Positions 10,811 through 62,116 of a stretch of 64,000 nucleotides of DNA are shown here, one piece after another. The position numbers and the translations under genes were made by a program. Source of the DNA: Blasia pusilla. Lineage: Eukaryota. The DNA is taken from assembly GCA_050084515.1 (NCBI GenBank), contig CM114271.1:28210001-28274000 (forward strand), written 5' to 3'. A model generated the notes under the pieces. That model made no database searches, was not told where the DNA came from, and saw only the letters and a program-made list of their open reading frames with translations. Within the stretch, counting starts at the first letter, position 1, and each line of letters begins with the position of its first letter.

Positions 10811-10829
10811 GCAATGTCCCCCACAAAGT

Positions 10830-12729: not shown

Positions 12730-15700
12730 CCTAAGGGATGCAATAATCATATTGCGTACCTCACCTATGTTGAGAGATATCTTTGAGATGGCTAAGTTCA
12801 TTGAGCATAACATGGCCGAGGAGAATTGAGAAGCCATGAGTTACATGAGATATCTATCAAAGTTGCCTACACCACCAGTGCAACAATGTGTATCTTCAGA
12901 GAGGAATACGACACAGTGAGTTAAGGGGGGTAATCATGAGCATGTCCCACAACAACCTACGCCATCATATGCCAATGAGAAGCAACCATGAGTTGTTTGT
13001 TGGGCATGTGGTGGAGCCCATCTCCAACCTGATTACAACCATCACTTATAAGGGTAGTGGATGCGTGCCCACTAGGAGTGTTCCAGTGTGACCATTGTCA
13101 AGGATATGTTCATAGGCGCACTTGACATTTTAGCCTACATCTTGAGCTATGTTCACATCAAGGGACAAAGAGGGCACCACATAGAGTTGGGAGTCTGTTA
13201 GGGTCAGGGTGAGACCGAAGGTCATGCACTAGGTGATCCCATTGGAGGAAAAAGAGCTGAATTTTTCTATAAGAGAGGTGGATATGCCCGTGGAGGATGT
13301 GCATGTAGAGATGTGCTTCCTAAATGAGTCAAGGGGGATTAATGGCATGAGGCTAGGATGGCTGCTCCGATAGAGCAATTACAACAAAAACTTTTTAGGA
13401 TGGCGTTGAGGTTACCTAATGCCAAGTCAATGACATTGACCTCATATGTAATAGCTAGAGACAAGGTTGGATGTGTAGAGTTGAAAAGACGAAGACAACC
13501 GCTATCATTATCCGTGGAGTAGCCCTAGAGATGGTTTGAGGGAGGGAGGGGGAGCCAAGAAATAGACTAGGCTTCCTCAATTAGTCATTTACATTGTCCA
13601 ATGCAATGAGGATCCTAATCACACTTCTTGGAGGATGGATGTTGTTGGTATGAAACCACGATGGTCGATGGGAGAAGCAAGCACGATGACTCCTATTATT
13701 CATTTTCAGGCGGAGCCCTTATCGAATACGTTGTTGGGAGCGGCCATTGCTATGAATCGCACCCATTGGTCTTCAATCTAGGATGTTGTTACATTGGGAG
13801 GTACGCGCATCAAGGAGTTTTGGCTGGCTACTACGCTTTGTGAGCATGGAGATGGTGTTACTGCCTTGCCCTGAGAGCTTTTTACAGAGGAGATGGTGGA
13901 CTTGCCCTTGGAGCCTTTTGCTAAGGCCGTATATCTCAAATTGATGGTAGGTTGTAGATGGTACGACCCATAATAGATTGTGCCATGGTCTCTTCCATTT
14001 GGTGAGTCGAGGAGGTAGAGTGATTTTTCTACAATGTGTCTTGCTAGACTAAGGAGCACAACCCCTTATGTTGGGGAGGCGGCGTTTACAATATTGGGCC
14101 TGATTAATGTGGAGCATTTTCCATTCAACATATAGACATCCTTGGGTGGAGTGATTATGAGGTAGTTTATCCCTCCACATTGAGGTCGTGGTGAGGATTT
14201 GACCACAACATCTGTAAGATGAGTCTATGATGCGAGCCAAGGCAATAGTGACCAATGCAAAGGCCTATGACATCTTGGTTGGCGATGCAATGTTGTACCT
14301 GATGGATTTAACCCTCGATTATATGGAGGATTCAATCCTATGGAGCATGATGGCAGTAATATGACGGGTGACTACGCTTGTTAGCTGTTTGATTCATGAG
14401 TGGAGGGATCAAGAAACAATCAAGAGAGGTGATAACTCACACAACATTCAATATCGCCATCACTTGGCACAGTAGGGCAAGTCGATGAAAATAACACATC
14501 AATGGTTCATACCCCTACATGCTATAGAGAAAAGTGTTATGGCAGATATTCTGTTGAGGAGAGGTGCATTTTAGGGCTCAAGTCAGGAGCTTCAATGCTT
14601 AGCTGATAACCATGTGTAGATGGCATGGAGTGAGATCTTTGCTCCACAGCATGACAAGTCAATGGAGCCTTAGGTAGCAAGGAGTGTTTTGATGTCATCA
14701 TGTCACCCTTGGATACAACACTGATTGTATGGCACATCCAAGAGAAGGATACTAAATTGTTGGATCTCTTTGGAGGGATCAACCCTCGGTTGGTTGCTAT
14801 TTTGCAGGTTTGAGTGCATATGTAGTAGTATTTGTATGTGGAACATCTGAGGTTGCAAGGCACATCTCACTATGACATGTGGCGTAGTTGCAACCTCATT
14901 TTTCCAACCCAAAACCTTTGGTATCGGCCGTACGGAGTTACCAGCTAGAGTTTCTTATCGAGGGATATTTCCTTGCTAGGGATCAAATCAATGACCATTT
15001 GGAGGTTGGCCATGTGAGATCTGGTTGAGAATTGGATTGGATGAGGTGGTGGTTTATCTTACACTCGATCCATGTTGTTTTGGGAGATGATGAGGGTCTT
15101 GCGCCACTTGCAAAAAAATTGGTCCCTTTCTCCAACTTACGTTGTAGAGATTCTAGGTCGTGAGTGGTGTTGAGTACACATCAGGTTCATGAAAGTTGGC
15201 CAAAAGATGTTTTTAGATGCGGAAACTGCAGGTTCACGAGCACATCGTCTGCTTTTGTACTAGACCAACTTGGTGCCATATGAGATGTTGAGGGCGTCGT
15301 ATGCGAGAGTGGCGCGTCCCTGCCATTATTTTGTCGATTCCATTTTGGATCCTCGATGGCAATCACAAGTAGTGAGGCACAATGATCGACCTATGTTGAT
15401 GGTGGTCAACACGATTGGCAATCTAAGGGCAATCTTTCCCGCTTTTGAGATTTTTCCCGCTTCCTATGCGTATAAGGAGTTTGGTCTTGGCTTGGTTTGG
15501 GATGACCAAGTAGCTGCTAGAGCCCAACGTCAAGTAGCTGCTAGAGCCCAACGTCAATGAGAGAGAGTGAGCATTGGAGTTCTCCACAAGAGTGACAACA
15601 GTACCGTTACTATCACATGCATCTCAATCTCATGTCTGAGGACCTAAACTACTAGAAATGCATTCTCAACTTAGTACTAGGTAAGCAATATCAGATACAA

Positions 15701-18700
15701 TTGCAACATATGACCTCTGGTGCACTAGTTAGCCATGTATCTATTAAGACGGTTGAGGCAGTGGTTGGGGGTGATATTTGAGGAGATTGACACTTTAAAG
15801 ATGATCAAGAGAGACATCTTTGGACTTCTAGGGATGTGTTGTAGGTACATCAAGAAGTGGGGCAACCATAGGGGCGAGCTCCATCTCAAGGAGTATTAGG
15901 AGGTGAGAGATCCGACTTGGTTGTAGAGGAGAAACCAACTTCTATTGGTTGCAATAGGGTTGCAACATATATAGCAACCAAAACCATCTATGGTACCTAC
16001 CGTAGTCACAATGGCGATTTAGGAGTATGATATGGGCCCTAATTTGACAAGAGGAACGAGATACATCAGTCCCTTATGAGTCATAAGAGTTTTTTAGCAT
16101 TCAATATGCATGATTTGGGTACAATGAAGGGTCCAAGATTCTGCATTGAGTTGTCTAGCGACATGCTGATCTTTCAACCGCCCTACAAGTACAGTGATAG
16201 TAAGAGGGATGTGATTCATAGCAGAAGTTGACAGGTGCTTGAGACATGACAAGTGGAGATGTTGCGTAAAGAGTGTGCATTTGCCATTGTCATGCCCACC
16301 AAGAAGGATGGGCATGGCAATTGGACGAATAGGTCGATGTGTAGAGATTATCAACCTATCAATGCCATTCAATGGCTAGATAGGGTTTAATAGGTATGTC
16401 ATGCCCACTCCTAAGGAGACCTTTAATACTATTGGGCATTCAAAGGTCTAGAGTTCTAAAGATCTTTGAGATGAATAGCATGAACTCCCTATCAGATTTA
16501 AAGATAAGAAGAAGAAGACATTTTGCAAATTTTGGGCATCGATCCTCACGAGAAGAATTTTTTCTACCAATGGGCTCTTACCATCAGGGTTAAAGAAGGC
16601 CTTGTCAAAGTTTTAGAGGGTAATGGATAGGACCTTGGCTAGTCTAGATTTTACTAGATATTACATTAATGACATTGTAGTCTTTAGCGCCACAATTGAG
16701 GAGTATGAGGAACATCTAAAGGAGGTGTTCCGACAATTGCAGTAATATGGTTTTAAGCTGAATCTAGGAAATTACAAGTTCTTCTACGAAAAAATTGAGC
16801 ATTTGGCTCATAAAATATATCAAAGTAGCCTTGGTGTTCCATAGATGAAGGTAGGTGTTATCTCATGCGTTCCACGCCCTACAAATATGAGTCGAGTTCA
16901 TGCATTCATGGGATTGGAAAATTTATATCGACGGTACGTTTGATTTCTAAGCTACTAACCTTGATGAGCAAGGTGGATCTCAAGTGGTAGAGCGGGGATG
17001 AGAAAGAGAGAGCATTTCAGGTGCTCAAGGATAGATTGATGTTTGTGTCTATATTGAGCACACCTATCACAAGCCATCCTTTCCAATTGCACACAAATTA
17101 GAGTATGTTGGACCTTGGAGCAATGCTCACCCAACATGATGCTGAGGATAGAAAGTTCATGGTGCCTTGCGCTAGTCACTTGAATACAATTTCAGTGGTG
17201 AAGTATAGCTTGTATATGGATGAGTGTTTTGCTGCAATACATGATATCTTGCATTTTAGATGTAACTTATTCAGAAATCCCTTGACCATCATTACTGATC
17301 ATCAACCACTCAAGTGATTGATGTAGTCCGAAAGCTTACATGAAAACTAGCTATGTGGGTTTTATTGTTGCACGGATATGATTTCCAATTGTTAAATCAA
17401 CCAAGGATGCTCCACCATGATGTAGATTGGTTAATTCTTAACCCATGCTCGGATCATTAAGATGCAACTAGAGCTTGAAGGCATGGAGAGACTGATGAGG
17501 AGATGGTGTTTGGATGGCACGTGTCAACATATTTGGGTTTGTTCGCTATGGACAACCAAAGTGTTGGGACTTTGATGGGGAGGTCCAATGGAGGGCCCTT
17601 AGATCCATAGGTCGGCGAGAAGGTGACAGATAGTCAAGATATCAACAAGGATTGGGTTAGTCTTGCAATATTTGCATACTTGCAAGCTAGGTTGTGAGTA
17701 TAGGGGGTTTTAGAGAGCAAGACCATATCCCATAATAAGTCAGACGATTCCAACGGGAGGGAACACATATGGATGTCTACGAGTTTTAAAGGTAGTAGAG
17801 TATGCTTAGTGCCTCATACTTTATAAAGAGCACCATTATTGTAGCACATCCATAAGGAGTTGGAACACTTGAGAGTAAAGCAGACTTATAATTTGCTCCA
17901 AATATTGTACTAGTGGCAAGGTATGCACACTAATGTTCAGTAGGTATTTCCAAATATATGGTATGTCATCAAGTTGGAGCATTATTCTGATTCATTGAGT
18001 ACTCTGGCTCCACTATTGCACCCACTCATGATTATGGGTTTAGGCTATGTATGGAGTTCGGATTTTGCATGATCTTTATTTTTCACCGAGCGTCATAGTC
18101 ATTTTGTGGTGATGATGGTCAAGCACTTCTTAAAAGTAGATAGAGTTTCTTGCATTTTTTGATAAGCAAGTAAGGAAGTAGATCCTAGATCGGGTGTTGA
18201 GTCATTATGGCGTACCAATTGATATGTTAATGAACCATGGCATAGAGTTTCACAAGGAGTTTCAGACCTTGTATGTCCAAGTGTTTATTAACCACTGCAC
18301 TACTTTGCAAGATCACCCTAAGAAAAATGGACTAGCGGAGAGAAGTGTTAAAATAATGACGAGAGGTTTACGCAAGTATGGCTTGCACAGATATCACCTA
18401 GGTGATATCTACAATTGCCATGATTGATGATGGGATACAAATTTAGCAAGCAAACATCCTTAGTGTCTCTTACCTTACTTGTTGCTTTATGTACAAGATC
18501 CTCATTTATCTACAGTCATTTTTCATGATGCTAGTGAGGTGTTGAACCTTGACGATCATAATATAAGGATGTGAGCATGTTCTCAAAGGGTTGATCAAGT
18601 TATTTTGGAGAGTTATGCCCATGATCTTCAAGAACTTGGTGATTAAGCAACATCATGATATGTTGATGTATGAAACTTTTTGGGAATGTGATTATCGACC

Positions 18701-19073
18701 AATGATTTGGAGATTTTATCAAGGAGACTACATCTACTTCCAATGTTGGATGTGAAAGTAGGGCCCACCATCTTGAGAATATGCGAGGTATTGCCGTCCG
18801 GTGTTCTCTTCTTGAAGGGTCGTAATTTAATCGTTTAGAAGCACCATGTGCGTGACTATGGGCCAAGTCACCTTCTTAACATTGATGGTTAAATTAATAT
18901 GAGCTTAGCAGTAGTTCGTGTAGGCTTATATTGTATGTCATGTGGATATGCCCGCGGTGTAGCCACTATACTAGTTTTTTCATGGATGTTCGAGAGTGTG
19001 GCACTTGATGTGTTTGAAACTACCTCTCACTAGGGTTCCTTAGGGACGATGGACCTATTCTAGACGTACATAG
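12730..19073 (+). pseudogene. Decayed Ty3/Gypsy gag-pol: gag, protease, C5-DNA methyltransferase, RT, RNase H, integrase, PHD finger
   Basis: Gag knuckle remnants at about 12995-13130, protease VLLD*GAQPLML at about 14040, DNMT motifs at 14757-15650, RT YIND at about 16660, RNase H IITDHQPLK, integrase NGLAER, and PHD remnant CMSCG...GCSRVWHLMCLKLPLTRVP*GRW at about 18930-19060. Confidence 0.85.
14757..15660 (+). pseudogene. DNMT3/DRM-like C5 cytosine methyltransferase domain within pol (decayed)
   Basis: Motif I LLDLFGGI (14757), motif IV GGWPC (15001-15015), LFWEMMRVLRHLQ, motif VIII FLDAETAGSRAHRLLLY*TNL, and a motif IX-like ERE remnant. Colinear with 57036-57990. Confidence 0.8.
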
Positions 19074-19265
19074 AGAAGGTAACAGGTAGTCATAGATCTA
19101 GACTTGCATTGGTGACATGGATGACAAGAAGACGACTAATATTAATGGGGCCACATGAGCACTTGACCCTTTTGCTCTTAGCGTCCTAGAGATGTGTGTC
19201 ATAGTAGGTAAGGATAGATAGCTATATGGAGTTAGAGGGACCTAACCATCAGCTAAGGAGAGGAT

Positions 19266-20375
19266 TAGAAATATTCTCGTACATAATTGTCTCGTTGTTT
19301 ACATACCATGGATACGGTATCTTGTGTGTTTTTGTTTATAATTGGTGACAAGGATGTATGTTGTATAATAATATATATACGCATGATAATTTTCATATAG
19401 ATTTTAGGATGGATTAATGAGTATCCTTAAAGCACCTTCAAGGAGATTGGAGGACATACTCAAGAGGTTGAGGATGACGTGTTAAGGCCTCAAGTAACCT
19501 GAGAGAATAGGTTTCCCCTTGGTTTTGGCTCGTTTGAAGCTTTTTATAAAAATATCCTAATTGGAGTATATTTCTATTATGATTATAATTGATTTTCCAA
19601 TTTCGAAAGAAATCTTTGATCCCCCCATATTAAGTGAAGAGCCAATGAGATAACTTGTGAGCATACGTTACCATTGAGAGAGCTTGGGAGAGGGAATGGG
19701 GTATACCCTAAGAGAGGAAGCTTTGGAGCTCATTCTTGCTTTATTTAACCTCTTCGCATGAGGTGGCAGAGCTATGGTCCTCCTTATCTTATGAGTAACA
19801 CAAGTCTTTGATCAACAGATTGAGTTTGGAACTTTGGTTTGACATGAGAGAGATGGATTTTTTGTAAGAGCTTTAAAGTCATCTTAATTTATTGGGGATA
19901 TTTTGACAAGGTTGGATGTGGATAAAGTCCATGTCCGTGGACTTACGTTCGTCCGATGGAAGGACTTGTCACATCTTATTTTCACGCAGGTAGACTTCTA
20001 TCGCGTCGACGGCATAGAGAGTCAACTGTTGAGCCCTACATGTATCTCATCCCCCCCACTTGCCTCCATATTCCGTACTTTCCCGTTTCTTCCTTTCCCC
20101 ACCTTCACTCCCTCCTCCCTCGATAATTAATTTCCTATCCTCCCCTTCCTTGCCTTGCTCCACAAGCTATAAGTATGGGCCCCACTTCTAATACTAATTT
20201 TTTTGTAGACATGTCCGCGCTAAGGATGAACTTGTCTGTTTTTGTACAACCATGTATTTTGGTACACGAGCGCCTCAGTATTCAGATGATATAACTGAAT
20301 ATGGTATCTTGTGTGTTTGTGTTTATATGTGGTGACAAAAATTTATGTTGTGTAGCAATATGTATGCGCATGAAA
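19266..20375 (+). repeat. 3' terminal A-B-A repeat block of the + strand copy
   Basis: A 19266-19388 follows a purine tract, B runs about 19391-19860, and A' 19893-20375 is split by a MITE. Confidence 0.7.
19907..20254 (-). mobile_element. hAT-type MITE, copy 2 (same family as 10149-10476)
   Basis: Ends CAAGGTTGGA...TACAACCATG. TSD TATTTTGA/TATTTTGG. Terminal sequences are the reverse complement of copy 1. Confidence 0.75.
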
Positions 20376-21329
20376 AGAATAACGTTGCAGCATTGCCATG
20401 ACCAGAGCAATTGGCGCCCTCTTATACACACCCAAATCTTTTATCAACCCAAAGTGCTTCATGGAGGCTATGAGAGCTTTGCTGCAAAAAATGTGCGGGA
20501 AAACAAAACATTAAGGGATTTCATGAAGCTGTTTTCTTATTATAACATAAAGGGAAATACATCAAGTTTTCAATTTTATAGCCCTCAAAGCTTATATGTA
20601 GTTTAAATTATGAACTAATGCCATCAATATTTGTTTTTGGGATTGTCGCATACTCCTAATAGTCCCAAGAGTGTCGCTGGGAGAGGATCATATGAGGAAA
20701 AAAAAAGACTAAATCACTAATTATAAATCTTGACTATAAAAAGTGGTTTGGTCTGTCCATGCGCAAAATGTTTTGGACAATATGGGCAGTATTTCTTTCG
20801 AATACGATCTGTCCCCTTGACGACAACAAATTTGAAACGGAACTCTCCTTGCCTAGTATTATACTACCTTTGCTAGAAATGTGGCTTTACAAATGTGGGT
20901 TTTGCAATGTCCAGAATCTTTAATTTCTAAAATGTGCAACTACTTAAATGTGAAGGTCTTAATTTAAGAACTTAGGGTCATATTTCATCATCTCAAAACT
21001 CTTTCATATAATCTTGATATGTTATTTGGAAATAAAATATTAGGTCACTAATTTTATGCATCTCTCACTTAGCTTCCATTCTTAAAATTTGGACTTCCAT
21101 AAGCATTAATGTTTTAATGTTTTTAGTTCAAATTTATTTTTGATTTTCCACGGGGAGCTTCTCTCTGCAGTGGTTTCTGAGAAATGAAGGCTAATCATAG
21201 GCCCCATAAATTTTGGTGAGTGGATAATATTAAAGGTCTCCTTTTATAAAAATTTTCCAAACATGGTAGGATTCTGTGTAAGGATAGTGTATATATAAAT
21301 AGGTCATTGCTTTCCTTGAGAAAAAAATG

Positions 21330-40680: not shown

Positions 40681-41647
<967 letters not shown>

Positions 41648-42876: not shown

Positions 42877-42877
42877 T

Positions 42878-43171: not shown

Positions 43172-43232
<61 letters not shown>

Positions 43233-51400: not shown

Positions 51401-51630
51401 GAGTCAGCGTCCTACAGACCAGGATGGCAGTCAAGTGATGGGTGCCTTAGCTATTTACACGTTTGGTTCACAGGTGGAGTGATCGAGCGACGGCCAGGAG
51501 AGATGGCGACCTTAGGAGCATTTAGCTGTGCCATCACTTGGCCTAGTGATTTGATTGAGGGACATGTTCATGTAGAGGATATTCCCGTTCCTGATATTTC
51601 TATGGAGAGGAGTGTCATGGTAGCCGCATC
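48470..51630 (+). mobile_element. Second tandem family copy: leader, gag with two zinc knuckles, aspartic protease; truncated at 51630
   Basis: Gag ELHDFIAEFRSWCD, knuckles CWSCGGAHH*RDC and CDYC*RYGHTHARC (about 49988-50137), protease RILLDSGAQTLILG (about 51100) and YDVLVG. Confidence 0.85.
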
Positions 51631-52596
51631 TGTCGTGCGTATACACATTGCTACACAACATACATCGTTGTCATCGAACACACACAATCCCAAGCTAACT
51701 CATGGCATCCATACACATAGGCGAGAAGTACTAAAATATCTCCAATCTCTCATTCTCTCTTTGTAAAGTAAGATCCAATCTCTCTCTACACCATCTCACA
51801 CCATTGCTCTCAAAGGTGTGCACTCTCCCTCATGTCAAACCAAACCCACTCTCCTCATGAGAGGCTTGGGTTACACTCACAAGGCAAGGGACCATAGTTC
51901 CGCCGTCTCATGCCAAGATGTTCAACAAAGACATAATGAGCTCTTAAGCTCCCTCTCTTGGAGGTATACCCCCTTCCCTCTCCCAAGCCCTCTCAACGGT
52001 AACCTATGCTTGCAGGTCACCTCCTTGGCTCTTGACATGCTGTAGCGGGTCAAAGGCTACTTCCCAAAGTGGAAAGTCAACTATCCCCAATATGGAAACT
52101 TAACCGAAATAGTGAGTTTCTCTATATGGCTCCAAATGAGCCGAAACGAAGGGAAACCCTGCTCTCTCTGGTTTCCCGGGGCCTCAGCAGGTCATCCTCG
52201 ACCTCCTGGGCCTGTCCTCCACTACTAGTGAAAACGCTATACTAGATCCCACCGATCTATCCTAACATTCGTGATAACTATCGTGCGCATACACATTGCT
52301 ACACAACATACATCGTTGTCATTGAACACACACAAACACACACGATCCCATGCTAACTCATGGCATCCATACATAGAGGCGAGAAGTACCAAAATATCTC
52401 CAATCGCCCCCCTAGTTGGTGGTTAGGTCCCTCTAACTCCAGATAGCCATATTTCCCTACCTACCATGACATACATCTCTAGGACGCTAAGAGCATAAAG
52501 GTCGGGTGCTCATGTGGCCCCATCCTTAGTCGCCTTCCTGTCATCCATGTCATAGAAAAATTTGGAATCGAAACCTACCTAGTATCTCCTCTATGT

Positions 52597-53845
52597 TCAT
52601 CTAGGACACATCCATCGTCCCCGAGGAACCCTAGTGAGAGATGGCGCCAGACATGCCATATGCCAATCTCTCGAACATCCATCACAGACTAGCATCGTGG
52701 CAGAACCACACAACATACAACGCAAGCCTGCAAGAACTACTGCTAAGCTCGGATCTATTGTACCATAAATGTTAGGAAGGTGACATGGCGCACAATTACG
52801 CACATGGTCCTTCCATACCATACCATCGCGTCCCTCTAGCAAGAGAACATCGGATGGCAAAACGTCATGCACTCTCAGGATAGTGCGCCCTGCAGTCACA
52901 TCCAATGTCGTCACTATCGTCTGCTGCAAGTAGACATAATCTCCCTGATGAAACCTCCACATAGCTGGTCGATAACCAGCACCGCGAATAGTCGCATACC
53001 TCAACGTATCCTGATGCTGCGCAATCGCCAAGTTCTCGAACGCCATGGGCATCACTCTCCGAAATAACTCAACCCTTTGACAACATGCTCGCATCCATAC
53101 ATCTGGGTTATCAAGGTCCAGCACCTCACCAGCATCTCGACGAATGGCCGTAGGTAAATCTAGCTCTCGGCCATAAAGTAGCAAGTACGGTGAAAAAGAC
53201 GCTAAGGATGCCTGCCTATTGAATCTGTATCCCATCGCCAACCATGGCAACTGGAGGTCCCAATCTCCTAGGTGCATCTCTGCAAGCCATACTTGCTTAA
53301 ACCCCTCTTCACTGTCTACACAACTCTCTCCGCTAATCCATCCGCCTCGAGATGATCTTGCGAAGTCGTGCGATGGCCGATCAGCGCCTGATCACACAAG
53401 GTCAGGAACTCACCGCAAAACTCGGTACCTTGGTCTGTCAACACCTCAGCCGGTGCACCATAATGACTCAGCACTCTGTTAAGGAAGGCATAAGCTACTC
53501 CCTCACTCGCTTTTTCAGGAAATGCAACCAACTTGATCCACTTTGAGAAGTGCTCGACCATCACCAACACATAACGACTGTGTTTTGCAAAATCCAAACT
53601 CCATCTATACCCTAAGCCTATGATCGGTAATGGATGCAAGTGTGGAGTCCAAGCATTGAACGTTGCTCGGACCCGATCACACACCATGCACCTGGCAACA
53701 AATTGTTGAACGTCAGTCTGCATGCCTCGCCACCAATACTGAGTCTGGAGCAAGCTGTACGTCCGCTTCACCCCAAAGTGACCCAACTCCTCGTGAGCAT
53801 GCTGCACTAGTCGTGCTCTTTGCAAAGGATGCGGCACTACGCTGC
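52597..53845 (-). pseudogene. Gypsy integrase with C-terminal PHD finger
   Basis: HHCC (HEELGH...CMVC) and D-D-E core (WSLDFA, LTDQGTEF, DGLAER). PHD CMLC...CDGCSRDWHMACLAPSLTRVPRGRWMCPR at 52600-52719. Disrupted between the two ORFs near 53280-53316. Confidence 0.9.
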
Positions 53846-55230
53846 GTGGTGCGGTAAATCGGCTAATCAATCATCTCATGAACAACATATACCCTCAACT
53901 ATGGACATCCCACACACGTCTATGTGTCTTAAACCCATACATCAATGATGCTCTGTGCACCACACGAAACCCAATGTCCCCAAATAACTGCCCAATACCC
54001 AGAAATTCCCTCACACGTATAGGGGAAAAGACGAGAATGGATAACCTAACAACAATGTCGATGTTGCTCCTCACCAATTGTAAACCTCAACCCCAACTCG
54101 GTCGTGAAGACAAACTCCTCCAATCAGCAAGCCGCACTCCTCTTGTATTGATGAGGAGTCAGACAAGCAGTCAGACGAAGACGAAGACTTCAAAGACTTC
54201 AAAGACTTCATGGGTTTGAATCACAGAGGGGATTCAAACCCATGGGTCTTTTTGGGTTGGGAAAATTTTTTGCCCAATGATTGGCTGCCCCGCAATTATA
54301 ACAAAAATTCCTCTAAATAGGTGGGGTGAACGCCACGGGTCCCATGATCTGCCGTAGAGGCCTTTGCTCTCTAAATTCTGGTGGCACGTATCTTGGGATC
54401 TAGCTGCAAGAAGTACTAGCCCCTTAGTTTTGGGGTACTCTCTAGGCAGGAGGATCCTCCGCCACTAGTTCCCGTCTTACACCAAGTGGGGGTCCTACGA
54501 CTTGTTCTACTCCCATTCCCCACTTTCTTGCTACCTCTCCTTGCTTGGAAGATCTGGTCATCCCCGGTAGTGGACCCAAAATTCCCTTACCTTTTTCCTT
54601 ATGTAATGTATAACTCAAGGAAAAAGCTACTCTTTCTATCGCAAAGAACTAAGTTCGTTCCCAAGAGACCACTATTTGCTGAGTAACGAGAGGTTTTATA
54701 AAGAATATCAAGAATAAACTCCTTCTTCAATAAAATGCTTCCCTAACTACAACGATAGTGTCTTATGAGTGCAAAAGAATAAAAGGCTTTTCTTTACTCT
54801 TGGAAAAGACTCTTCTCAAGTGCATACGAAGACTCTTGCAAATCTGCAATAACAAAGCTCCACGAAGACCTCAAAGAGATCTCAAGAATAGCGGCTCCCC
54901 CTACTTTCAGAACTATCTTCTGGAATTGTGAAACTACAAGACTCAACTCTCATCTCTACTGCAGCCCAATAAGATCCACATTCAGTTCCGCACTTTAGAA
55001 AGAATGAAAGAAGACTCTTCTTCTACATCAAAGAGTGGAAAGAACTCATAAGTAGTACAAGCGTCTGAAAGTAAAAGACTCTTCAACTTGGATCATCCCC
55101 CAACAAAACTCCTTACACTCTCACCAAGACTGCGAGTAAACTCAAGATACACAAAACAGTATTGAGGAGTTCAAGATACAAGGGAAAACGATGAATCTGT
55201 CATGGCAAGTTACTCACTATCTAACAACTT
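53846..55230 (-). mobile_element. Insertion splitting the RNase H-integrase linker: duplicated family leader segment (about 53846-54148) plus a foreign LTR-like block (about 54149-55226)
   Basis: 53880-54125 is similar to 60270-60495. The foreign block reads TGTTAGATAG...CATCA on the minus strand. No TSD found. Confidence 0.55.
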
Positions 55231-55232
55231 TC

Positions 55233-56800
55233 CTACGCTTCTCTGCCATCCTCCAAAACCCTCAAATTATGTGTCCCCTCCCAATGGAACCGTCTGGCCC
55301 GCTGGAGGATCCGATCCCGCTCTCTAGCACCCACAATGCTCGCAACACTGCCAGTACAAAGGTACTCCAAGACTACTCCATCATCATAAATATCTCGGCC
55401 ATTTGTCTTCTCCTCACTGGCCTCGGGATCCAAGGACTCTCCACTAGACCTCGCCATCGAAGTTTCCACACTCTGGCTCTCCATAGCCAACATGCCTACA
55501 TAGGCTGATGCGTGCCATCCTGATACTGACTCCTCATCACTCTCTCCATGCCATCGAGCTCCAGTTGCATCTCGCTGACTCGGGCATGGGTTACGACTCA
55601 ACCCATCTGCATCTTGGTTGGGCGTCCCATGTCTATGTACCACCTAAAAATCATACTCCTCCAACAAGAGAGCCCATCTCGCAAGCTTCCCTGTAAGCTT
55701 GTCGGACTCCATCAACCACTTCAGTGGTTGATGATCAATGATGATGGTAAAGGGATTGCCGAATAAGTAACACCTGAAATGCGCGACAACCCACACCGCA
55801 GCCAAGCACTCACCCTCATACGAGCTATACTTTTCCTCTACAGCATTATTTGAGCGGCTAGCGTAAGCCACCACAAATTCTCTACCCTCATCATCATGTT
55901 GGGTAAGCACCGCTCCAAGCCCCAACATGCTCCAATCTGTGTGCAACGGGAAAGGACGCCCACTGATTGGTCTCCGGTGCGGACGTCAACCTGTCCTTGA
56001 GCAACTGAAATAATCCCTCGTGCTCATCCCCCTAGTGCCACTTGTGATCCACTTTGGTCAGCAAGGTCAGCGGCTTCGCAACCGAACTGAATCCATTGAA
56101 GTACCACCGATAGAAGTTTTCCAATCCCATGAATGCGCAAACACGGCTCATATCTATAGGGCTTGGAATGCGTGAGATAGCCTCTGCCTTTGTCTACTGA
56201 ACACCAAGGCCCCCTTGGTATATTGTATGACCCAAGTACTCAATCTGGTCATAGAAGAACTTGCATTTTCCTGGATGTAGCTTCAGCCCATGTAATTGCA
56301 ATCGTCGAAACATCTCCTCTAGATGTCGCTCATGCTCCTCAACCGTGGCGCTAAAGACTACGATGTCATCAGTATAACACCTAGCAAAATCCAAACGAGC
56401 CAAGATCCTATCCACGATCCTCTGAAACTTAGCTAGGGCGTTCTTTAACCCAAATGGTAAGAACCGCCACTCGTGCAAACAATCCTTCCCGTGAGGATCG
56501 ATGCCCCAAAATGCCGTCTTCTGCCTGTCCTCCAATCTTAAAGGCAGCTGATGGTATCCGGCTCGCAAATCCAATGAATTGAAAACATTTGCATGACCAA
56601 TCGCATCAAAGATCTCCTCAAGGGTGGGCATGGCATACCTATTGGACTTTGTTTGCCGATTGATAGGTCAAAAATCCCCACACATCCGCCTATCCATCTA
56701 GTTGCCATGCACATCCTTCTTGTCGGGCATGACAATGGCAGATGCATACTCGCCATGCGACATCTCCACTAGTCAAGTCCTGGCTCCTACTCTGAATCAG
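55233..56800 (-). pseudogene. Gypsy reverse transcriptase and RNase H
   Basis: MPTLEEIFD, SLDLRAGYHQ, DRQKTAF, LPFGLKNA, CYTDD, KCKF, YLGH. RNase H HTDWS..GLGAVL, YASR, YSSYEGECLA, DHQPLKWL, ADGLSR. Confidence 0.92.
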
Positions 56801-57329
56801 AGCCCTCTCCATATCACTATACCTGTATCGGCGTATCACTTGACAACTCAATGCGGATCCTCGGTCCCTTCAGCGTACCCAAATCCTCCATGCTAAACGC
56901 AAAGCACCTCCTATAACTCCTGAGGAACTGATGTATTTGGCGCCGCTCTCCTCCTGTCAACTTAGGGCCCATATTTGGCTCCCAAGTCTCCATCGTGACT
57001 ATGGTAGGACTCTCCGGCGTGGATATCAGTGGTTGCTATGGTGCAACCCTGTCTCGAACAACAACACTCAACCGCTCTCTTGCAGCCAACTGCAAACTCT
57101 GATCTCCTCCACATGCACTGCCCGGAACCACGCTCGATGCTGTGGCTATCATCTCTTGGTGTACCTGCAAAACATCCCAAGAAGTCCAAGGGAGTCTCTC
57201 TCGATCTCCCTTGGTGTATCGATCTCCTCGGGTCTCGCCCCCAGCCACTGCCTCCATCGTCTCGATAGGCATGGGGCTCACCAACGCAACCGATGTGATC
57301 TGACGCGATCTCATCCGACGCTGCATAGC

Positions 57330-57990
57330 CACTTCCAAGCTGAAGATCCATGTCAACCAGTTCAGGTCCATCGCCTGACCCAAGACATGGCATCGTGATG
57401 CCTCTGACATTGACGTGACTGCCGTCAAACCTGGGGGAAATCCCATCGCGCGCTCTCTCTTGTTGGCGTTGGGCTTTACCAACCTCTGAACCTGGTCATC
57501 CCAAACCAAGCCAGGACCGACCTCCTTGTATGCATAGGAAGCGGGAAAACTCACAAACATGGGAAAGGCTGCCTGCGGCCTGCCTACCTCGTTGACCAAA
57601 GTCAACGCTGGTTGATCATCGTGCCTCATTGCGTGTGATCGACGACCAGGATCCATAATGGAATCCCCTAACAAATGGGAGGGGCGCTCCACTCTTGCAT
57701 ACGCCCTCCGTAACACTGCATGGGGCACCAATTTGGTCCACCATAGACGCGGGCGATGGGCTCAAGAACCAACACTCGCTGCATCCAAGAAAACTGCTGG
57801 GCCGATCCAGGCACGCACCTGATGAGCACTCGTCACCACCCATGACATGGAGTCTTCTAAGATGGGCACATTCTCCAGAATGTAGGCTAGAGAACAAGAT
57901 TGGTGCTCCTGCAATTGCCGTAAGACCCTCAACATCTCCCAAAATAACCTCGAACAAGTAGCAGCCAACTCGCAGCCTCGTCCAGCACTC
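57330..57990 (-). pseudogene. C-terminal half of the DNMT3/DRM-like methyltransferase domain (motifs VI, VIII, IX, X)
   Basis: One frame with a single TGA: SRLFWEMLRVL, YILENVP, FLDAASVGS*AHRPRLWWTKL, RERAMGFPPGLT, RCHVLGQAMD. Confidence 0.88.
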
Positions 57991-58199
57991 GATCCCATCG
58001 CTCGCTCTCTCTCGTTGGCATTGGGCTCCACCAACCACTGAACCTAGTCATCCCAAACCAAGCCAGGACCGGCCTCCTTGTATGCATAAGAAGCGGGAAA
58101 ACTCACAAACGTGGGCAAGGCTGCCCGTGGTCTGCCTAAACGTGATGCAGGAACTCCAAATCCACGCTCACATAGCGTAGCGGCCAGCCGAAAAGCCTC

Positions 58200-60010
58200 A
58201 GCGGGCTAACCCCCCAACGTCATAACATCGGAAGCACAAAATAAAGGAGCGCGGTACACAATGGTGGCCGCCCCCAACAACGTGCTCGACACATGCCCCT
58301 CCTGAGCATCAACAATAGGAGTCGTCGTATTCGCTTCTCCCATCGCCCTCCGTGCCTGCACACCAACAACATTACCAACTCTCCAAGAACTGTGATCAGG
58401 ACCCATCGGTGGGGTCCTCATCGCCTCGGACAAGGTGAAAGAGTGAGGAAGCCTAGTTTGTTTCCTGGCTTCCCCTCGCTGTGGATCCAACTCTGCAGCT
58501 GCTCCACGCGTTCCAACTATGGCTTCCTCCATCTTGGCAACCCCGCACATCCAACCTGGATCCTCGATATGTCTGGCTGCTCCATATGATGTCGATGCCA
58601 CGGATCCAGAATTGGGTAATCTCAATGCCATAGCGGCAATCTGCTCCTGTAGTTGATGTATCTGAGCAGCCATCCTAGCCTCACGCCTGGCATCTCCCTC
58701 GACGCGTCTAGGTGGTAGGACTCTACCTCCTCCACAGGCAGCTCCAACACCCTGTCGGAAAACTCCAGCTCCTTGTCCCCCAACAGGACCACCTGGTGCA
58801 CGATCTCTAGGCCCACCCGGACTGGCTACTCGCTCTGGTGCCCTCTATGGCCCTCGGTCCGGACGTAACTCAGTATGTAAATTGAAACACGTGGCGCGTG
58901 TATGACCATACCTCTGACAATAGTCACACTGATAACCTCTTGGTGCAGCACCATCTCCTCCTCTATGTTGACGCACACGTTCATGACCCTAACGAGTGCA
59001 ATCGCGCTGATGATGGGCTCCACCACATGACCAACAAGTAATAGTAGGCGGCTGCTGCTGAGCCCATATGGAGGCGCAGGTCTCTGTGGCACGGCCTCCC
59101 GGAATCCTCCCTGAGCTCGTGGTGCCACACTCAACCTATCGCGGAGTCCACGTTGCTGCACAGGTAGTGTAGACAATCGTGACTGCTCTCGCGCAAAATC
59201 CATGGTGGCTACGCTCTCCTCTGCCATGTTGCGCTCAATGTTCTCGGCGGTCCTAAAAACATCTCTCAACAAAGGGGAGGTGTTCATAAGAAGTACCCCC
59301 TCCCGCACTCGTGTCTGCAGGTTCCGGTCCAATTTTGCGTACCATGATTGGATATCTTGAGCCTCTGTCACCCCTTGAGTGACGTTAATCAACCGGTGCA
59401 AGCGAGAGTAAGCCTCACGCAAACTCTCACCCGGGCGCCTGTGGAAGTCGTGGATGCTCCACAACTTCTCCGTCCGTACCCCTTGGTAGCTACCCTCAAC
59501 TCAACAAAGAAATCAACCATAAAGTTGAACCTAGGACGAACCCGACTGGATGATGCAACTGCCCCAATCCGACTCACCCCTCCTAGTACATCACTAGTGG
59601 AAGACGAAGTAGCCTCTCCCAACTCCTCCTCCTCATCTCGCAATGGCTCTGTCCATGACACGTAATGTGGGTCATAGTAGAGCCTCCACGGCTTGATCTC
59701 ATGTGCATATCTCTGAGAAAACTCATGGTAATCATCCATGGGCGCCCCCTCTAAATGTTGGAACATACCGTTTCATGATGTAAACGGGTTGAACTCTCTA
59801 GAGTTCCTGACCCGCTAGGAGTCGCACCAACTCCTAAACGTCGTGATGAAGTCGTGCAACTCTCTGGTGCCTATTGCATCTGAGAACCTGGGCGGCCCTC
59901 TACCCCAATCGTCCATCTCGTACGCGCAACTAGTAGGACCATTCACAATGTGTGGCGATATGCTCACAAACTCCTCTACACCCTTCCCCTCGTCTAACGA
60001 TGATACAGAA
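58200..60010 (-). pseudogene. Gag with two zinc knuckles
   Basis: Homologous to 49030-50900 (FQHLEGAPMDDYHEF, DFHRRPGESLREAYSRL). Knuckle DNA at about 58890-59040. Confidence 0.85.
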
Positions 60011-61597
60011 GGAGGTCGAGGGGGTCCCTCACGTGGAGACCCTCAAAACCTCACGACACTCCGTGTAAACCCTCTAAAGTTACTCTCAGGTTCATCACCT
60101 TACCTCTAATGACCCTCGTGCCCTTGCATACGCTCCCTCTCCCCTCTGTGAGTAATCACTTAGACTAAACAATCGGTCTACACTCCCTCTCACCGAGTTG
60201 TGTGGCATGCGGCAACGGACGGCGTGGTGCGAAAAATCAACCACGCTATCATCTTATCGACAACCTACCCATCAACTCTGGACATCCCACACAAGTCTAT
60301 GTCCCTTAATCCACATACATAAACGATGTTCTCGGCATCCACACAAACCCAATATGTCAGATAATTGCCCAGTTCTCACAATTCCCTCACACGTACTGGG
60401 CAAAAGACCACGATGGGTAACCTCAACAAATGTTGAATCGCTCCGCATCAACTGCAAACCTCGACCCCAACTTGGTCGTGAAGCCAAACTCCTCAAACCA
60501 GCAAAATACAATTTTCTCCACAATGATGGCTCCGCGATCGAGACGGTGCGGTGCGGCCACGAGCGGCATGGCGCGGAAATTGGTGGCGCGTTGCGGCTAC
60601 GGGCGTCACGTCACGATACTCGATCTTTGTGGAGCGGCTACCAACTCAAAACATAGTAATGCGTCTAGAAAACTCGGACCCCATAAATCACTCGGTCACA
60701 CGTCGTCGTGAGTAGTACTCCAGTCGATCGATGATAAGCTCCACAAAGGTGTGACGAAGGCGGCCTGAACAACTACTTGGCGGTGTATATATGTGACTTG
60801 TCAACGGCCGTTTCTCCCAACCTAAACAACGGTAACAGTCAGTCGACGGCAGATTGACGGGTAATGGGCCAACTGACGGGTTGAAGGGCCTGGTAAAGGG
60901 TTGACAGCCTGGCGACGGGTGGACGGCCTGGCGACGAGTCGACGGCTTAGCCGATGGCAACGGCAATGGGTTGACGGCTTGGCGATGGGTTGACAGACGA
61001 GACGACGGCGACGGCGATGGCGACGGTGGTCGACGGTGATGGCGCCGCCATGGGTTGGCTGCTTTAGGGTTTCAATTTTTACCCAAAAATTGGCAGTTTA
61101 CAAATTGGCCATAACTTTCTGGTTGCAACTTCAAATCGCGCACCATTCTTGCAAAACGTGCACAGCTTCAAGATCTACGATGGCGTCAAAAAATATTTTG
61201 AATCAAAAAATCCAATAAAAATTGATGGAGATTGTCGTAAACCCCAACGTTTCTTTCTTCTACACAAAATCTGATTTCTCCCAACAAAAATGTAAAACCT
61301 GTGAAAAAGACAAATTAGAAAGCTACCTGGTGCTCTTGAGAGCATTGGCATGGGTAATCCGCCCCCACACTCAAATTCTACCAACATTTAGGCAGTGCTT
61401 CCGCGCGCCACTCTCTCGTACAAAAAAACGGTAAAGGAAAACAACAAACTAAATAACTCTTGCTCTCGTGAGCACTCCCATGAGTCATGAAGCAGGGAAC
61501 ACTGTCCCTAACCTGCAAACACATCGAAACTCTAGCAAGCTCCCGCATTGTAACTCTCATTCTCTCTTTGTAAAGTAAGATCCAATCTCTCTCTACA

Positions 61598-61599
<2 letters not shown>

Positions 61600-61670
<71 letters not shown>
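61600..61670. repeat. (CT)n microsatellite inside repeat B
   Basis: Seen directly. Confidence 0.95.
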
Positions 61671-61672
<2 letters not shown>

Positions 61673-62116
61673 GTCAAACCAAACCTACTCTCCTAATCAG
61701 AGGCTTAGATTACACTCATAAGGCAAGGGACCAAAGCTCTGCCGCCTCAAGCCAAGAGGTTTAACAAAGAGAGAATGAGCTCTCAAGCTCTCTCTCCTTG
61801 AGGTATACCCCTCCCCTCTCCCAAACTCTCTCCATGGTAACCTATTCTCCCAAGTCACCTCCTTGGCTCTTGACCTGATGTAGGAGGTCAAGGGCCACCT
61901 ACCAAAAATATAAAGTCGGTCATATACTCAAAATGGTACTTATCTAAAATAGTAAGTTTCTCAATATGGCTCCAAATGAGCCGAAACGAAGGGGAAACCT
62001 ACTCTCTCAGGTTTCCCGAGGCCTCAGGAGATCATCCTCGACTTACTTAGCGTGTCCTCCACTACTCACGTAGACGCTCTACTAGATCTCACCAATCTAT
62101 CCTAGAAGGCATGACA

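What the first reader, a model, noticed from the sequence alone, without database searches (positions are those of the whole stretch)
52597..52719. PHD finger fused to the integrase C-terminus: a writer plus reader pair in one retroelement
Seen: CMLC-x7-CDGC-x4-H-x2-C...W-x-CPR follows the C4HC3 PHD pattern, with a stop where the last Cys is expected. A remnant also sits at about 18930-19060. Known: chromoviruses carry a chromodomain at this position to target integration, many PHD fingers read H3K4 methylation state, and DNMT3 uses a PHD-like ADD domain. Inference: the element may choose chromatin with the PHD finger and write methylation with its DNMT.
Basis: partly seen in the sequence, partly recalled or inferred. 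Interest (0 to 1): 0.8.

Follow-up and report, generated by a model that had tools for sequence, protein, structure and literature searches.

The report
PHD finger on a retrotransposon integrase
A dead copy of a plant-lineage jumping gene ends its integrase in a real histone-reading PHD finger and also carries the remains of a DNA methyltransferase; the family was described in 2018, so this is a new member, not a new kind.

Summary
On the minus strand, 52600-52719 encodes a Pfam-significant PHD finger (PF00628, E 4.2e-8) directly after the integrase C-terminal domain. TGA replaces the eighth zinc ligand. A decayed second copy lies at 18930-19052.

The stop is private to this copy. 48 of 55 longer relatives have the full C4HC3 pattern. 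In nearly all laid RNA and DNA reads of the same species label the codon reads Cys.

The element is a Ty3/gypsy-type retroelement: gag, (protease), C5-DNMT, RT, RNase H, integrase, PHD. It has DIRS-like A-coding-B-A-B repeats and is related to KnitGypsy-Dnmt3 of Klebsormidium. The best named relatives are bryophytes (Marchantia, Calypogeia, Riccia, Sphagnum).

The window copy is dead:
- protease and DNMT motifs I-IV are deleted
- a 1.4 kb insertion splits pol
- there are frameshifts and at least 10 in-frame stops

Relatives about 90-95% alike are transcribed, with a strand bias that fits sense.

By sequence profile and by fold, the finger is closest to readers of the unmodified H3 tail (ATXR5, BHC80, KDM5A PHD1, CHD4, AIRE). 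Chromatin-guided integration, like the chromodomain of chromoviruses, is the best-supported function but is inferred. Coupling to the DNMT is untested.

Verdict: new member of a known kind, moderate interest.

The parts
52597..52719 (-). PHD finger (C4HC3) with ligands 1-7. TGA at 52597-52599 replaces the eighth Cys. The family's usual stop (TAG) follows two codons later, at 52591-52593.
   Evidence: Pfam PF00628 E 4.2e-8. Sequence read directly. Alignment with 15 relatives. AF2 model with mean pLDDT 71.7 and Foldseek best hit 5vab_A, TM 0.76. Reads give a Cys codon here.
52720..53274 (-). Integrase C-terminal domain plus a conserved 12-15 aa linker into the PHD; open frame with no stop.
   Evidence: tblastn of P0134 aa 2581-2807 to 53265-52600: 56.6% identity, 0 stops. 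70% identity to P0004.
53283..53843 (-). Integrase zinc-binding (H2C2) and catalytic core domains, in a different frame from the C-terminal domain (frameshift near 53274).
   Evidence: Pfam PF17921 E 1.6e-18 and PF00665 E 2.1e-10. Frames -3 then -2. Most RNA reads carry one extra letter at 53274: 95 of 115 and 79 of 108.
53843..55280 (-). About 1.4 kb insertion between the RNase H linker and the integrase, private to this copy. Its first 300 bp resemble the leader upstream of gag (60207-60504).
   Evidence: In copy 2 the flanks are 35 bp apart (17769 to 17804). Relatives have about 20 aa between the flanks. 52 RNA reads run off at 53842 into sequence that translates to the RNase H-integrase linker of relatives. 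The 78% repeat is.
55281..55985 (-). RNase H domain and the linker towards the integrase.
   Evidence: Pfam PF17917 E 2.2e-35. tblastn of P0134 aa 2100-2361.
55972..56826 (-). Reverse transcriptase (Y-T-D-D present), with 4 in-frame stops in the aligned stretch.
   Evidence: Pfam PF00078 E 2.4e-27. tblastn of P0134 aa 1834-2092.
56826..57992 (-). C-terminal two thirds of a C5 DNA methyltransferase (ENV, RPRLWW and RERAMGFP motifs) plus the linker to RT. The match starts just after the catalytic Pro-Cys motif of relatives; motifs I-IV are absent.
   Evidence: tblastn of P0015 aa 98-499 and P0134 aa 1400-1794. The PC motif of P0134 is at aa 1395. Pfam and PDB phmmer on the ORFs found nothing.
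57993..58292 (-). Partial duplicate of the DNMT C-terminal part, standing where the protease and DNMT N-terminus should be.
   Evidence: Direct repeat 57440-57586 / 57992-58138, 90% identical. tblastn. Copy 2 has 1284 bp (13864-15148) here, with protease and motif I remnants.
58136..60504 (-). gag-like region and leader, shared with gag-only fragments at 44690-46982 and 48495-50883 (+).
   Evidence: blastn 73-80% identity. No Pfam family.
61554..62104 (-). Repeat A1 (5' terminal repeat).
   Evidence: 78% identical to 51747-52264.
52278..52405 (-). Repeat B1.
   Evidence: 87% identical to 51630-51747.
51747..52264 (-). Repeat A2.
51630..51747 (-). Repeat B2. Together the repeats give the order A-coding-B-A-B.
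10098..20376 (+). Second, more decayed copy of a related family (about 70% nucleotide identity). It has protease and DNMT motif I remnants, a PHD remnant at 18930-19052, and B-A-B repeats at 19309-20376.
4841..5314 (+). Third integrase remnant of the family. No PHD was detected after it.
   Evidence: tblastn.

Best explanation
SHOWN. The stretch is the C-terminal PHD finger of the integrase of a Ty3/gypsy-type retroelement. Its lineage carries a C5 DNA methyltransferase inside gag-pol, in the order gag, protease, DNMT, RT, RNase H, integrase, PHD, and has DIRS-like A-coding-B-A-B repeats. This is the lineage published as KnitGypsy-Dnmt3, here in what is most likely a bryophyte. The window copy is a fossil: its PHD lost the eighth zinc ligand to a private nonsense change, and the element lost its protease and the catalytic half of the DNMT. 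Related copies in the same species are transcribed, with a strand bias that fits sense, and keep the Cys.

INFERRED. In working copies the finger stays attached to the integrase and binds the N-terminal tail of histone H3, most likely unmethylated at K4. That would tether the integration complex to chromatin lacking the active-promoter mark, as the chromodomain does for chromoviruses. The DNMT would then be a separate module acting on the element's own DNA. A physical reader-writer coupling is not needed and is not shown.
For: - PHD identity: Pfam PF00628 E 4.2e-8. The AF2 model of the window's own 52 aa (mean pLDDT 71.7) superposes on the ATXR5 PHD-H3 complex 5vab_A (TM 0.76, rmsd 0.9 A, 41% identity), on BHC80 2puy, on ORC1b with an unmodified H3 peptide, and on BAZ2A with an unmodified H3K4 peptide.
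- Profile against PDB sequences: CHD4 2.7e-22, KDM5A PHD1 2.5e-19, ATXR5 1.2e-18, then DPF3, KDM5B, WSTF, PHF21A, KAT6A, BAZ2A, UHRF1, ORC1b and AIRE. No BPTF, ING or TAF3 chain is among the best 60 shown of 107.
- Residue before the ligand His: Trp sits directly before it and Gly two before it in 50 of 56 intact short relatives. So there is no Trp at the cage position I recall for K4me3 readers.
- Family-wide feature: 51 of 55 longer relatives have PF00628 and 48 of 55 have the strict C4HC3 pattern. Ligands are invariant in 15 relatives.
- The stop is private: at 52597 the reads differ so that the codon reads Cys. RNA: 73 of 73 plus 6 of 6 (X22) and 108 of 108 plus 2 of 2 (X23). DNA contig depth: 60099 of 60354 (X1) and 7338 of 7338 (X4).
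- Transcription: first mates lie on + about 20 times more often than on -, which in the usual stranded library means RNA of the minus (coding) strand. Most reads are 90-95% alike, so they come from relatives.
- Architecture: P0134 has PR, DNMT, RT, RH, IN and PHD in one 2811-aa ORF.
- Link to KnitGypsy-Dnmt3: Klebsormidium nitens KFL_009030040 (P0051) matches at E 4.9e-36, and as a tblastn chain down to 7e-128. The A-coding-B-A-B repeats are as the legend of Fig. 4c in PMC5890265 describes.
- Position equals the chromodomain of chromoviruses (abstract of PMC3605345).
Against: - No binding, insertion-site or methylation data exist for this family's PHD.
- The streptophyte branch, which includes the window, has Leu-Arg or Leu-Lys directly before Cys1 (43 of 56). 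BHC80 and AIRE have acidic residues there that I recall as contacting H3K4, so K4me0 specificity may not hold.
- Similarity among short PHD fingers predicts the ligand only weakly. Several top hits (DPF3, KAT6A) read H3K14 acylation as tandem fingers.
- Whether the protease leaves the PHD on the integrase is unknown.
- The pile-up of family copies (45% of the window) could equally reflect poor removal rather than targeting.
- The pairing of A1 and A2 is uncertain: they are 78% identical, while A2 is 83-85% identical to solo repeats at 41-43 kb. The focal 'copy' may therefore be a composite.
- The strand argument assumes the usual library type.
Confidence: 0.6

Rival explanations
1. Reader-writer unit. 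The PHD works with the element's DNMT as the ADD domain works with DNMT3: it senses H3K4me0 and directs or licenses methylation of the new copy or of nearby chromatin.
For: - DNMT or a DNMT-like domain co-occurs with the IN-PHD in both branches. 8 of 55 relatives are flagged PF00145.
- P0027, which is not flagged, still aligns across the DNMT of P0018.
- An intact single ORF holds both domains.
- The nearest solved fingers read the unmodified H3 tail, the same mark that I recall for the DNMT3 ADD.
Against: - The two domains are separated by RT, RNase H and integrase (more than 1000 aa). Their order changes between branches: DNMT-RT-RH-IN-PHD versus RT-RH-DNMT-IN-PHD.
- Polyprotein processing would normally separate them.
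- The finger is always glued to the integrase C-terminal domain by a conserved linker.
- P0027 has Ala-Cys in place of the catalytic Pro-Cys, yet keeps the PHD.
Confidence: 0.2
2. The finger has a role that is not histone reading: integrase multimerisation, nuclear import, binding of a host factor, or shielding from host silencing.
For: The branch with the window lacks the acidic residues before Cys1. PHD-like fingers with non-histone partners exist, for example UHRF1 PHD with PAF15 (6iiw), which is listed.
Against: All the closest solved relatives, by sequence and by fold, are H3-tail binders. The Asp after Cys3 is nearly invariant, and the P-x-G-x-W stretch before Cys7 has invariant Pro and Trp.
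Confidence: 0.15
3. The IN-CTD-PHD piece is a domesticated host gene rather than part of a mobile element. About ten Marchantia loci are annotated as roughly 220-aa 'PHD-type domain' proteins.
For: Many short annotated proteins start inside the integrase C-terminal domain.
Against: In the window the piece is continuous with integrase, RNase H and RT and is flanked by terminal repeats. Of the 120 best-listed short hits (239 found at E <= 0.001), 64 fail the strict ligand pattern, 17 being partial and 47 having none, as expected of decaying copies. The window copy itself has a stop.
Confidence: 0.03
4. Chance Cys/His pattern, or a captured host exon present only in this copy.
For: None found.
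Against: Pfam E 4.2e-8. The same domain is at the same place in 48 of 55 relatives and in the second copy in the window.
Confidence: 0.01

Closest known systems
KnitGypsy-Dnmt3 of Klebsormidium nitens (de Mendoza et al. 2018, PMC5890265; I read section 9 and passages)
   Same: Gypsy-type RT, RNase H and DDE integrase with a DNMT inside pol upstream of RT. The repeat order A-coding-B-A-B is the same. There is direct sequence relation to K. nitens KFL_009030040. Another K. nitens protein of the family (GAQ92421.1, P0050) is named 'PHD-type domain-containing' by UniRef.
   Different: The host is probably a bryophyte; the best named hits are Marchantia, Calypogeia, Riccia and Sphagnum at no more than 78% identity. 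The paper's main text never mentions a PHD finger (0 occurrences). Its Fig. 4c and supplements, which I could not see, may show it. The paper places the acquisition in the K. nitens lineage; the spread seen here suggests it is older or wider.
Chromoviruses (Ty3/gypsy with a chromodomain at the integrase C-terminus)
   Same: A small histone-reader domain is fused directly after the integrase C-terminal domain. The proposed function, tethering integration to a chromatin state, is the same.
   Different: No chromodomain was found by Pfam. The likely mark is the unmodified H3 tail rather than H3K9me.
PHD fingers that read the unmodified H3 tail: ATXR5, BHC80/PHF21A, KDM5A/B PHD1, CHD4, BAZ2A/B, AIRE, UHRF1
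   Same: Best matches by profile (E 1e-13 to 1e-22) and by fold (TM 0.65-0.76, 36-46% identity). They share the ...LLCD.C...[WYF]H..CL.PPL...P.G.W.CP.C layout.
   Different: The finger is part of a retroelement polyprotein. The streptophyte branch has basic instead of acidic residues before Cys1. Binding is untested.
ADD domain of DNMT3 (recalled, not tested)
   Same: A PHD-type H3K4me0 reader found in the same protein product as a DNMT3-type methyltransferase.
   Different: ADD is a GATA-like plus PHD composite directly next to the catalytic domain. Here a single canonical PHD sits at the far end of the polyprotein, on the integrase.
EpiLTRs (bioRxiv 10.64898/2026.05.21.726589; passages read)
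   Same: LTR retroelements that combine a DNA methyltransferase with a chromatin reader.
   Different: EpiLTRs carry DAM plus a DNMT4-related DNMT plus a chromodomain.
PHD fingers in other retrotransposons: Gypsy-7a_cRei and REM1 of Chlamydomonas, CR1 LINEs (PMC9940879 legend; PMC8557442 and PMC6673714 passages)
   Same: PHD as an accessory domain of retroelements, called widespread in print.
   Different: In Gypsy-7a_cRei the legend lists PHD between RNase H and integrase, not after the integrase. No DNMT is reported there. The REM1 paper is not held.

Membership tests
PHD finger (Pfam PF00628) | Score above the curated Pfam cut-off | tested here: met
   33.5 bits against 24, E 4.2e-8, profile positions 1-46 of 47.
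PHD finger (Pfam PF00628) | Eight zinc ligands, C4HC3 | tested here: not met
   The window copy has 7 of 8, with TGA at the eighth. The feature is met in relatives (48 of 55) and in nearly all reads of the same species label.
PHD finger (Pfam PF00628) | PHD fold | tested here: met
   AF2 mean pLDDT 71.7. Foldseek: 16 PDB matches at E <= 0.001, all PHD fingers, best 5vab_A with TM 0.76.
Reader of unmodified H3K4 (BHC80/AIRE/ATXR5 type) | Closest solved relatives are of this type | tested here: met
   Entry titles name unmodified H3 peptides (5hh7, 4q6f, 3zvy).
Reader of unmodified H3K4 (BHC80/AIRE/ATXR5 type) | No aromatic-cage Trp two residues before the ligand His (position recalled) | tested here: met
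   Gly-Trp-His in 50 of 56 intact short relatives. The window has Asp-Trp-His.
Reader of unmodified H3K4 (BHC80/AIRE/ATXR5 type) | Acidic residue(s) just before Cys1 that contact K4 (recalled for BHC80 and AIRE) | tested here: not met
   The window branch has Leu-Arg or Leu-Lys (43 of 56). The long-tail branch does have Glu/Asp there.
Reader of unmodified H3K4 (BHC80/AIRE/ATXR5 type) | Binds H3 tail peptides, weakened by K4 methylation | not testable with these tools
   Needs a peptide array or ITC.
KnitGypsy-Dnmt3 lineage | Gypsy-type RT, RNase H and DDE integrase | tested here: met
   Pfam PF00078, PF17917, PF17921 and PF00665. The best PDB relative of P0015 is Ty3 (7q5b, 2.2e-94).
KnitGypsy-Dnmt3 lineage | C5-DNMT domain inside pol | tested here: met
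   A remnant with motifs from ENV onward lies at 57992-57300. It is intact in relatives (PF00145). The focal copy lacks motifs I-IV.
KnitGypsy-Dnmt3 lineage | DNMT is of the Dnmt3 clade | not tested
   The Atlas look-up says only C5 DNMT. The Dnmt3 assignment is taken from PMC5890265 for the K. nitens relatives.
KnitGypsy-Dnmt3 lineage | Repeat order A-coding-B-A-B | tested here: met
   Seen in both window copies.
KnitGypsy-Dnmt3 lineage | Sequence relation to K. nitens elements | tested here: met
   P0051: E 4.9e-36 and 54% identity over the integrase C-terminal domain; tblastn chain across DNMT to IN.
Chromovirus | Chromodomain at the integrase C-terminus | tested here: not met
   No chromodomain family was found in P0001 or in the intact relatives; a PHD is there instead.
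EpiLTR (2026 preprint) | DAM adenine methyltransferase plus DNMT plus chromodomain | tested here: not met
   No DAM or chromodomain family in P0134, P0015 or P0018 at E <= 0.01.

The most novel reading that the evidence does not exclude
This is an ancient clade of Ty3/gypsy elements that is still transcribed and spans the green lineage. Its hallmark is an integrase-PHD fusion, a counterpart of the chromoviruses, and it repeatedly travels with a DNMT or DNMT-like module. In bryophytes it would use an H3K4me0-type reader to land in silent chromatin, and its own DNMT3 to methylate the new copy. That would put the ADD-plus-methyltransferase logic of host DNMT3 on a mobile element, split between two mature proteins.
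Probability: 0.25. Interest if true: 0.7.

Novelty: new member of a known kind. Interest (0 to 1): 0.4.

Why it matters
It would extend DNMT3-carrying Gypsy elements from one charophyte alga to land plants. Named relatives are in liverworts and a moss, and transcripts of relatives were seen in the window's own unnamed host species.

It also points to a reader domain of these elements that the literature I could search does not discuss. If the finger guides integration, the family would be a second natural case, besides chromoviruses, of histone-mark-guided retrotransposon integration. Because relatives occur in Marchantia, a transformable model plant with published chromatin maps, the idea can be tested.

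For this window alone, the finding is a decayed copy in a nest of related fragments.

Tried and rejected
- Whole-genome search for further copies: no genome is held for this window.
- Earlier findings by place and by sequence: nothing.
- Pfam on the DNMT-region ORFs of the window: no family. phmmer of the ORF 57036-57761(-) against PDB: nothing even at E 10. The DNMT was recognised only through relatives.
- Typing the DNMT as Dnmt3: P0015 against PDB gave only RT, integrase and PHD chains among the 60 shown. The Atlas says only C5 DNMT.
- The look-up of sequencing runs: no RNA holder listed among the indexed runs. Raw-read RNA runs of the same species label were laid instead.
- Reading TGA as a recoded codon: rejected. 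The organism's own reads have a Cys codon there, and the copy carries many other stops.
- REM1 paper (PMC1291216): not held.
- Literature searches for Gypsy-DNMT3 with PHD, or in Marchantia: searches found no text describing a PHD on DNMT-carrying Gypsy elements, nor such elements in liverworts. These searches cover only the held library. Supplements and figures are closed, and Fig. 4c and Supplementary Figs. 13-14 of PMC5890265 may show the finger.
- Complex prediction was not used: no histone sequence was available from the allowed sources.
- Ka/Ks of the finger: not done, because no DNA of intact relatives was fetched.
Full report
**1. The observation**

The feature is on the minus strand. 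The open frame 52597-53391(-) (P0001) ends in C-MLC-GSATMLV-C-DGC-SRDW-H-MAC-(14)-C-PR followed by TGA. Pfam's PHD model (PF00628) matches residues 225-264 at E 4.2e-8 and 33.5 bits, against a cut-off of 24, covering profile positions 1-46 of 47.

The second site is also real. tblastn places P0001 on 18836-18976 and 18981-19052 of the plus strand, with a frameshift and stops. Read further, the last two ligand positions there are Tyr and Arg.

**2. More than chance, and the stop is private**

A search of longer proteins found 55 relatives.
- 51 of the 55 carry a precomputed PF00628.
- 48 of the 55 have the strict C4HC3 pattern at the same place.
- The seven exceptions are truncated or broken: P0019, P0022, P0028, P0037, P0050, P0051 and P0056.
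- In 15 relatives that are 50-71% identical to the window, all ligand columns are invariant. These proteins end W-x-C-P-x-C plus 0-11 residues.
- The window copy also lacks four residues of the loop between Cys2 and Cys3.

I laid two raw-read RNA runs and two DNA contig sets of the same species label on 52300-53900, at 88% likeness or more. At the third letter of the stop codon practically all reads differ, so that the codon reads Cys.

| Run | Type | Reads or depth showing Cys |
|---|---|---|
| X22 | RNA | 73 of 73 and 6 of 6 |
| X23 | RNA | 108 of 108 and 2 of 2 |
| X1 | DNA contig depth | 60099 of 60354 |
| X4 | DNA contig depth | 7338 of 7338 |

**3. What the element is**

Relatives map onto the window as one minus-strand element.

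| Part | Coordinates |
|---|---|
| gag-like region | 60504-58136 |
| Partial duplicate of DNMT sequence | 58292-57993 |
| C-terminal two thirds of a C5 DNMT | 57992 to about 57300 |
| Reverse transcriptase | 56826-55972 |
| RNase H | 55985-55644 |
| Integrase zinc-binding and core domains | 53843-53283 |
| Integrase C-terminal domain | 53274-52720 |
| PHD finger | 52719-52600 |

An intact relative, P0134 (2811 aa), has aspartyl protease, DNMT, RT, RNase H, integrase and PHD in one reading frame.

The terminal repeats are unusual. They run A1 (62104-61554), coding, B1 (52405-52278), A2 (52264-51747), B2 (51747-51630). Copy 2 shows the same B-A-B at 19309-20376. This is the arrangement that the legend of Fig. 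4c in de Mendoza et al. 2018 gives for KnitGypsy-Dnmt3 of Klebsormidium nitens: the repeats of a DIRS element with the domains of a Gypsy element. The K. nitens protein KFL_009030040 is a direct relative.

Named relatives are Marchantia polymorpha (about ten loci), Calypogeia fissa, Riccia sorocarpa, Sphagnum fallax and K. nitens. None exceeds 78% identity. The host is therefore probably a bryophyte, most likely a liverwort other than M. polymorpha. This rests on best hits only.

**4. State of the window copy**

It is dead.
- Compared with copy 2, about 1.3 kb holding the protease and DNMT motifs I-IV is missing and is patched by a 90% identical partial duplication. The match to relatives starts five residues after their catalytic Pro-Cys.
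- A 1.4 kb insertion (53843-55280) separates RNase H from integrase. It is private: 52 RNA reads run off at 53842 into sequence that translates to the linker of relatives.
- The frame changes near 53274, where most RNA reads have one letter more (95 of 115 and 79 of 108).
- The aligned stretches hold at least ten in-frame stops.
- A1 and A2 are only 78% identical, and A2 is closer to solo repeats at 41-43 kb. The copy is old and may be a composite.

About 45% of the window consists of fragments of this family.

**5. Expression of relatives**

In both RNA runs, first mates lie on the plus strand about twenty times more often than on the minus strand across integrase, PHD and the 3' repeats. In the usual stranded library this means RNA of the minus strand, which is the coding strand.

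Only 7 of 1389 laid reads (X22) and 2 of 1654 (X23) are 99% or more alike; most are 90-95% alike. The transcripts therefore come from related copies, not from this one. The strong strand bias argues against DNA contamination.

**6. What kind of PHD finger**

A profile of the 16 aligned fingers found 107 PDB sequences at E <= 0.001.

| PDB relative | E-value |
|---|---|
| CHD4 | 2.7e-22 |
| KDM5A PHD1 | 2.5e-19 |
| KMT2C / KMT2D | 2.5e-19 / 8.2e-19 |
| ATXR5 | 1.2e-18 |

These are followed by DPF3, KDM5B PHD1, PHF12, WSTF, PHF21A/BHC80, KAT6A, BAZ2A/B, UHRF1/2, ORC1b and AIRE. No BPTF, ING or TAF3 chain is among the 60 shown.

An AlphaFold2 model of the window's own 52 residues (mean pLDDT 71.7; residues 1-9 are low) matches the following best:
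- the ATXR5 PHD-H3 complex (5vab_A, TM 0.76, rmsd 0.9 A over 46 columns, 41% identity)
- BHC80 (2puy)
- MOZ and DPF2
- BAZ2B
- ORC1b bound to an unmodified H3 peptide (5hh7)
- UHRF1 and BAZ2A with unmodified H3

In 50 of 56 intact short relatives the residues before the ligand His are Gly-Trp. From memory, H3K4me3 readers have their cage Trp one position earlier.

Against a simple K4me0 assignment, the window's branch has Leu-Arg or Leu-Lys before Cys1 (43 of 56). BHC80 and AIRE, as I recall, use acidic residues there. The other branch of the family does have Glu/Asp at that spot.

**7. Mechanism**

Shown:
- the domain, its position, and its conservation on the integrase
- its presence in relatives whose RNA was seen
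- its co-occurrence with a DNMT in the lineage

Inferred:
- The finger stays on the integrase. The linker D-P-x-x-A-x-x-P-A-G-L-R/K-C is itself conserved.
- It binds the H3 N-terminal tail and steers integration away from H3K4-methylated, active chromatin. This parallels the chromodomain of chromoviruses, whose hallmark position is the same (abstract of PMC3605345; Gao et al. 2008, as cited).

The strong 'reader plus writer' reading is possible but less likely. The DNMT lies before RT in one branch (P0015, P0051, P0134, and the window). It lies between RNase H and integrase in the other (P0018, P0025, P0052). The finger, by contrast, never leaves the integrase. One relative keeps the finger while its DNMT-like domain has lost the Pro of the catalytic Pro-Cys. 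That fits the earlier scan note e1-2850094 on a dead DNMT fold in a diatom Gypsy.

**8. Comparison with what is known, and novelty**

- DNMT-carrying Gypsy elements are published (PMC5890265).
- Later texts from the same group speak of DNMT3 embedded in retrotransposons 'in streptophytes and dinoflagellates' (PMC12344493, passages).
- PHD fingers in retrotransposons are described as widespread (PMC6673714; PMC8557442; preprint 10.1101/2021.11.30.470311).
- A 2026 preprint describes LTR elements with methyltransferases plus a chromodomain.
- UniRef already labels Marchantia and Klebsormidium members 'PHD-type domain-containing'.

In the held library I did not find a text that notes the PHD finger on the DNMT3-Gypsy lineage or that reports this lineage in liverworts or mosses. 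Figures and supplements could not be seen. I therefore rate it a new member of a known kind, with a testable hypothesis attached. For this window it is a fossil copy.

**9. Verdict**

Interest is 0.4. The boldest reading not excluded is an ancient, still transcribed integrase-PHD clade that pairs H3K4me0-guided integration with self-methylation. I give it a probability of about 0.25.

Noticed in passing
51630-52405 and 61554-62104; copy 2 at 19309-20376: The terminal repeats are not simple LTRs. They have the DIRS-like order A-coding-B-A-B, although the element encodes a DDE integrase. The legend of Fig. 4c in PMC5890265 notes the same oddity for KnitGypsy-Dnmt3. How such ends are made and integrated by a DDE integrase is unexplained.
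   Followed up: partly
57440-57586 and 57992-58138: A 90% identical partial duplication inside the DNMT region stands where about 1.3 kb (protease and DNMT motifs I-IV, present in copy 2 at 13864-15148) is missing.
   Followed up: yes
53843-55280: A private 1.4 kb insertion sits in pol. Its first 300 bp resemble the element's own leader (60207-60504, 78%). The remaining roughly 1.1 kb matches nothing else in the window.
   Followed up: partly
whole window: About 45% of the 64 kb (28,976 bases) is made of fragments of this element family on both strands: 10098-20376, 41168-43586, 44690-51505 and 51630-62384. This is a nest of related copies.
   Followed up: partly
10845-11408 (+): A 187-aa open frame with a reverse transcriptase match (PF00078, E 6e-16) lies directly after the 5' repeat of copy 2, far upstream of that copy's own RT. 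It probably belongs to another inserted retroelement.
   Followed up: no
27525-29228 (-): The longest open frame of the window (567 aa) has no Pfam family at E <= 0.001; there is only a sub-threshold SUKH-1 hit.
   Followed up: no
relatives P0017-P0054 (not in the window): 32 of 48 intact longer relatives continue for 110-450 aa after the finger. The start of this tail is conserved (G-I/V-T...). In P0018 a stretch near the C-terminus looks like a small beta-barrel reader (my impression only). This may be a second reader domain in that branch.
   Followed up: no
relative P0027 (not in the window): Pfam does not flag a DNMT, but the protein aligns with P0018 across its whole DNMT between RNase H and integrase.
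   Followed up: partly
relative P0122 (cluster of P0008): A 1043-aa member of this eukaryotic retroelement family is filed in NCBI under 'uncultured Synechococcales cyanobacterium'. This probably reflects eukaryotic (plant or alga) DNA binned into a bacterial metagenome genome.
   Followed up: no
61578-61668: A (GA)n microsatellite lies inside the 5' repeat region of the focal copy and is absent from the 3' repeat.
   Followed up: no
62118-62384 (-): An isolated RNase H fragment is 91% identical in DNA to the focal copy's RNase H and abuts its 5' repeat. It is the remnant of yet another copy, closer to the focal one than copy 2 is.
   Followed up: no
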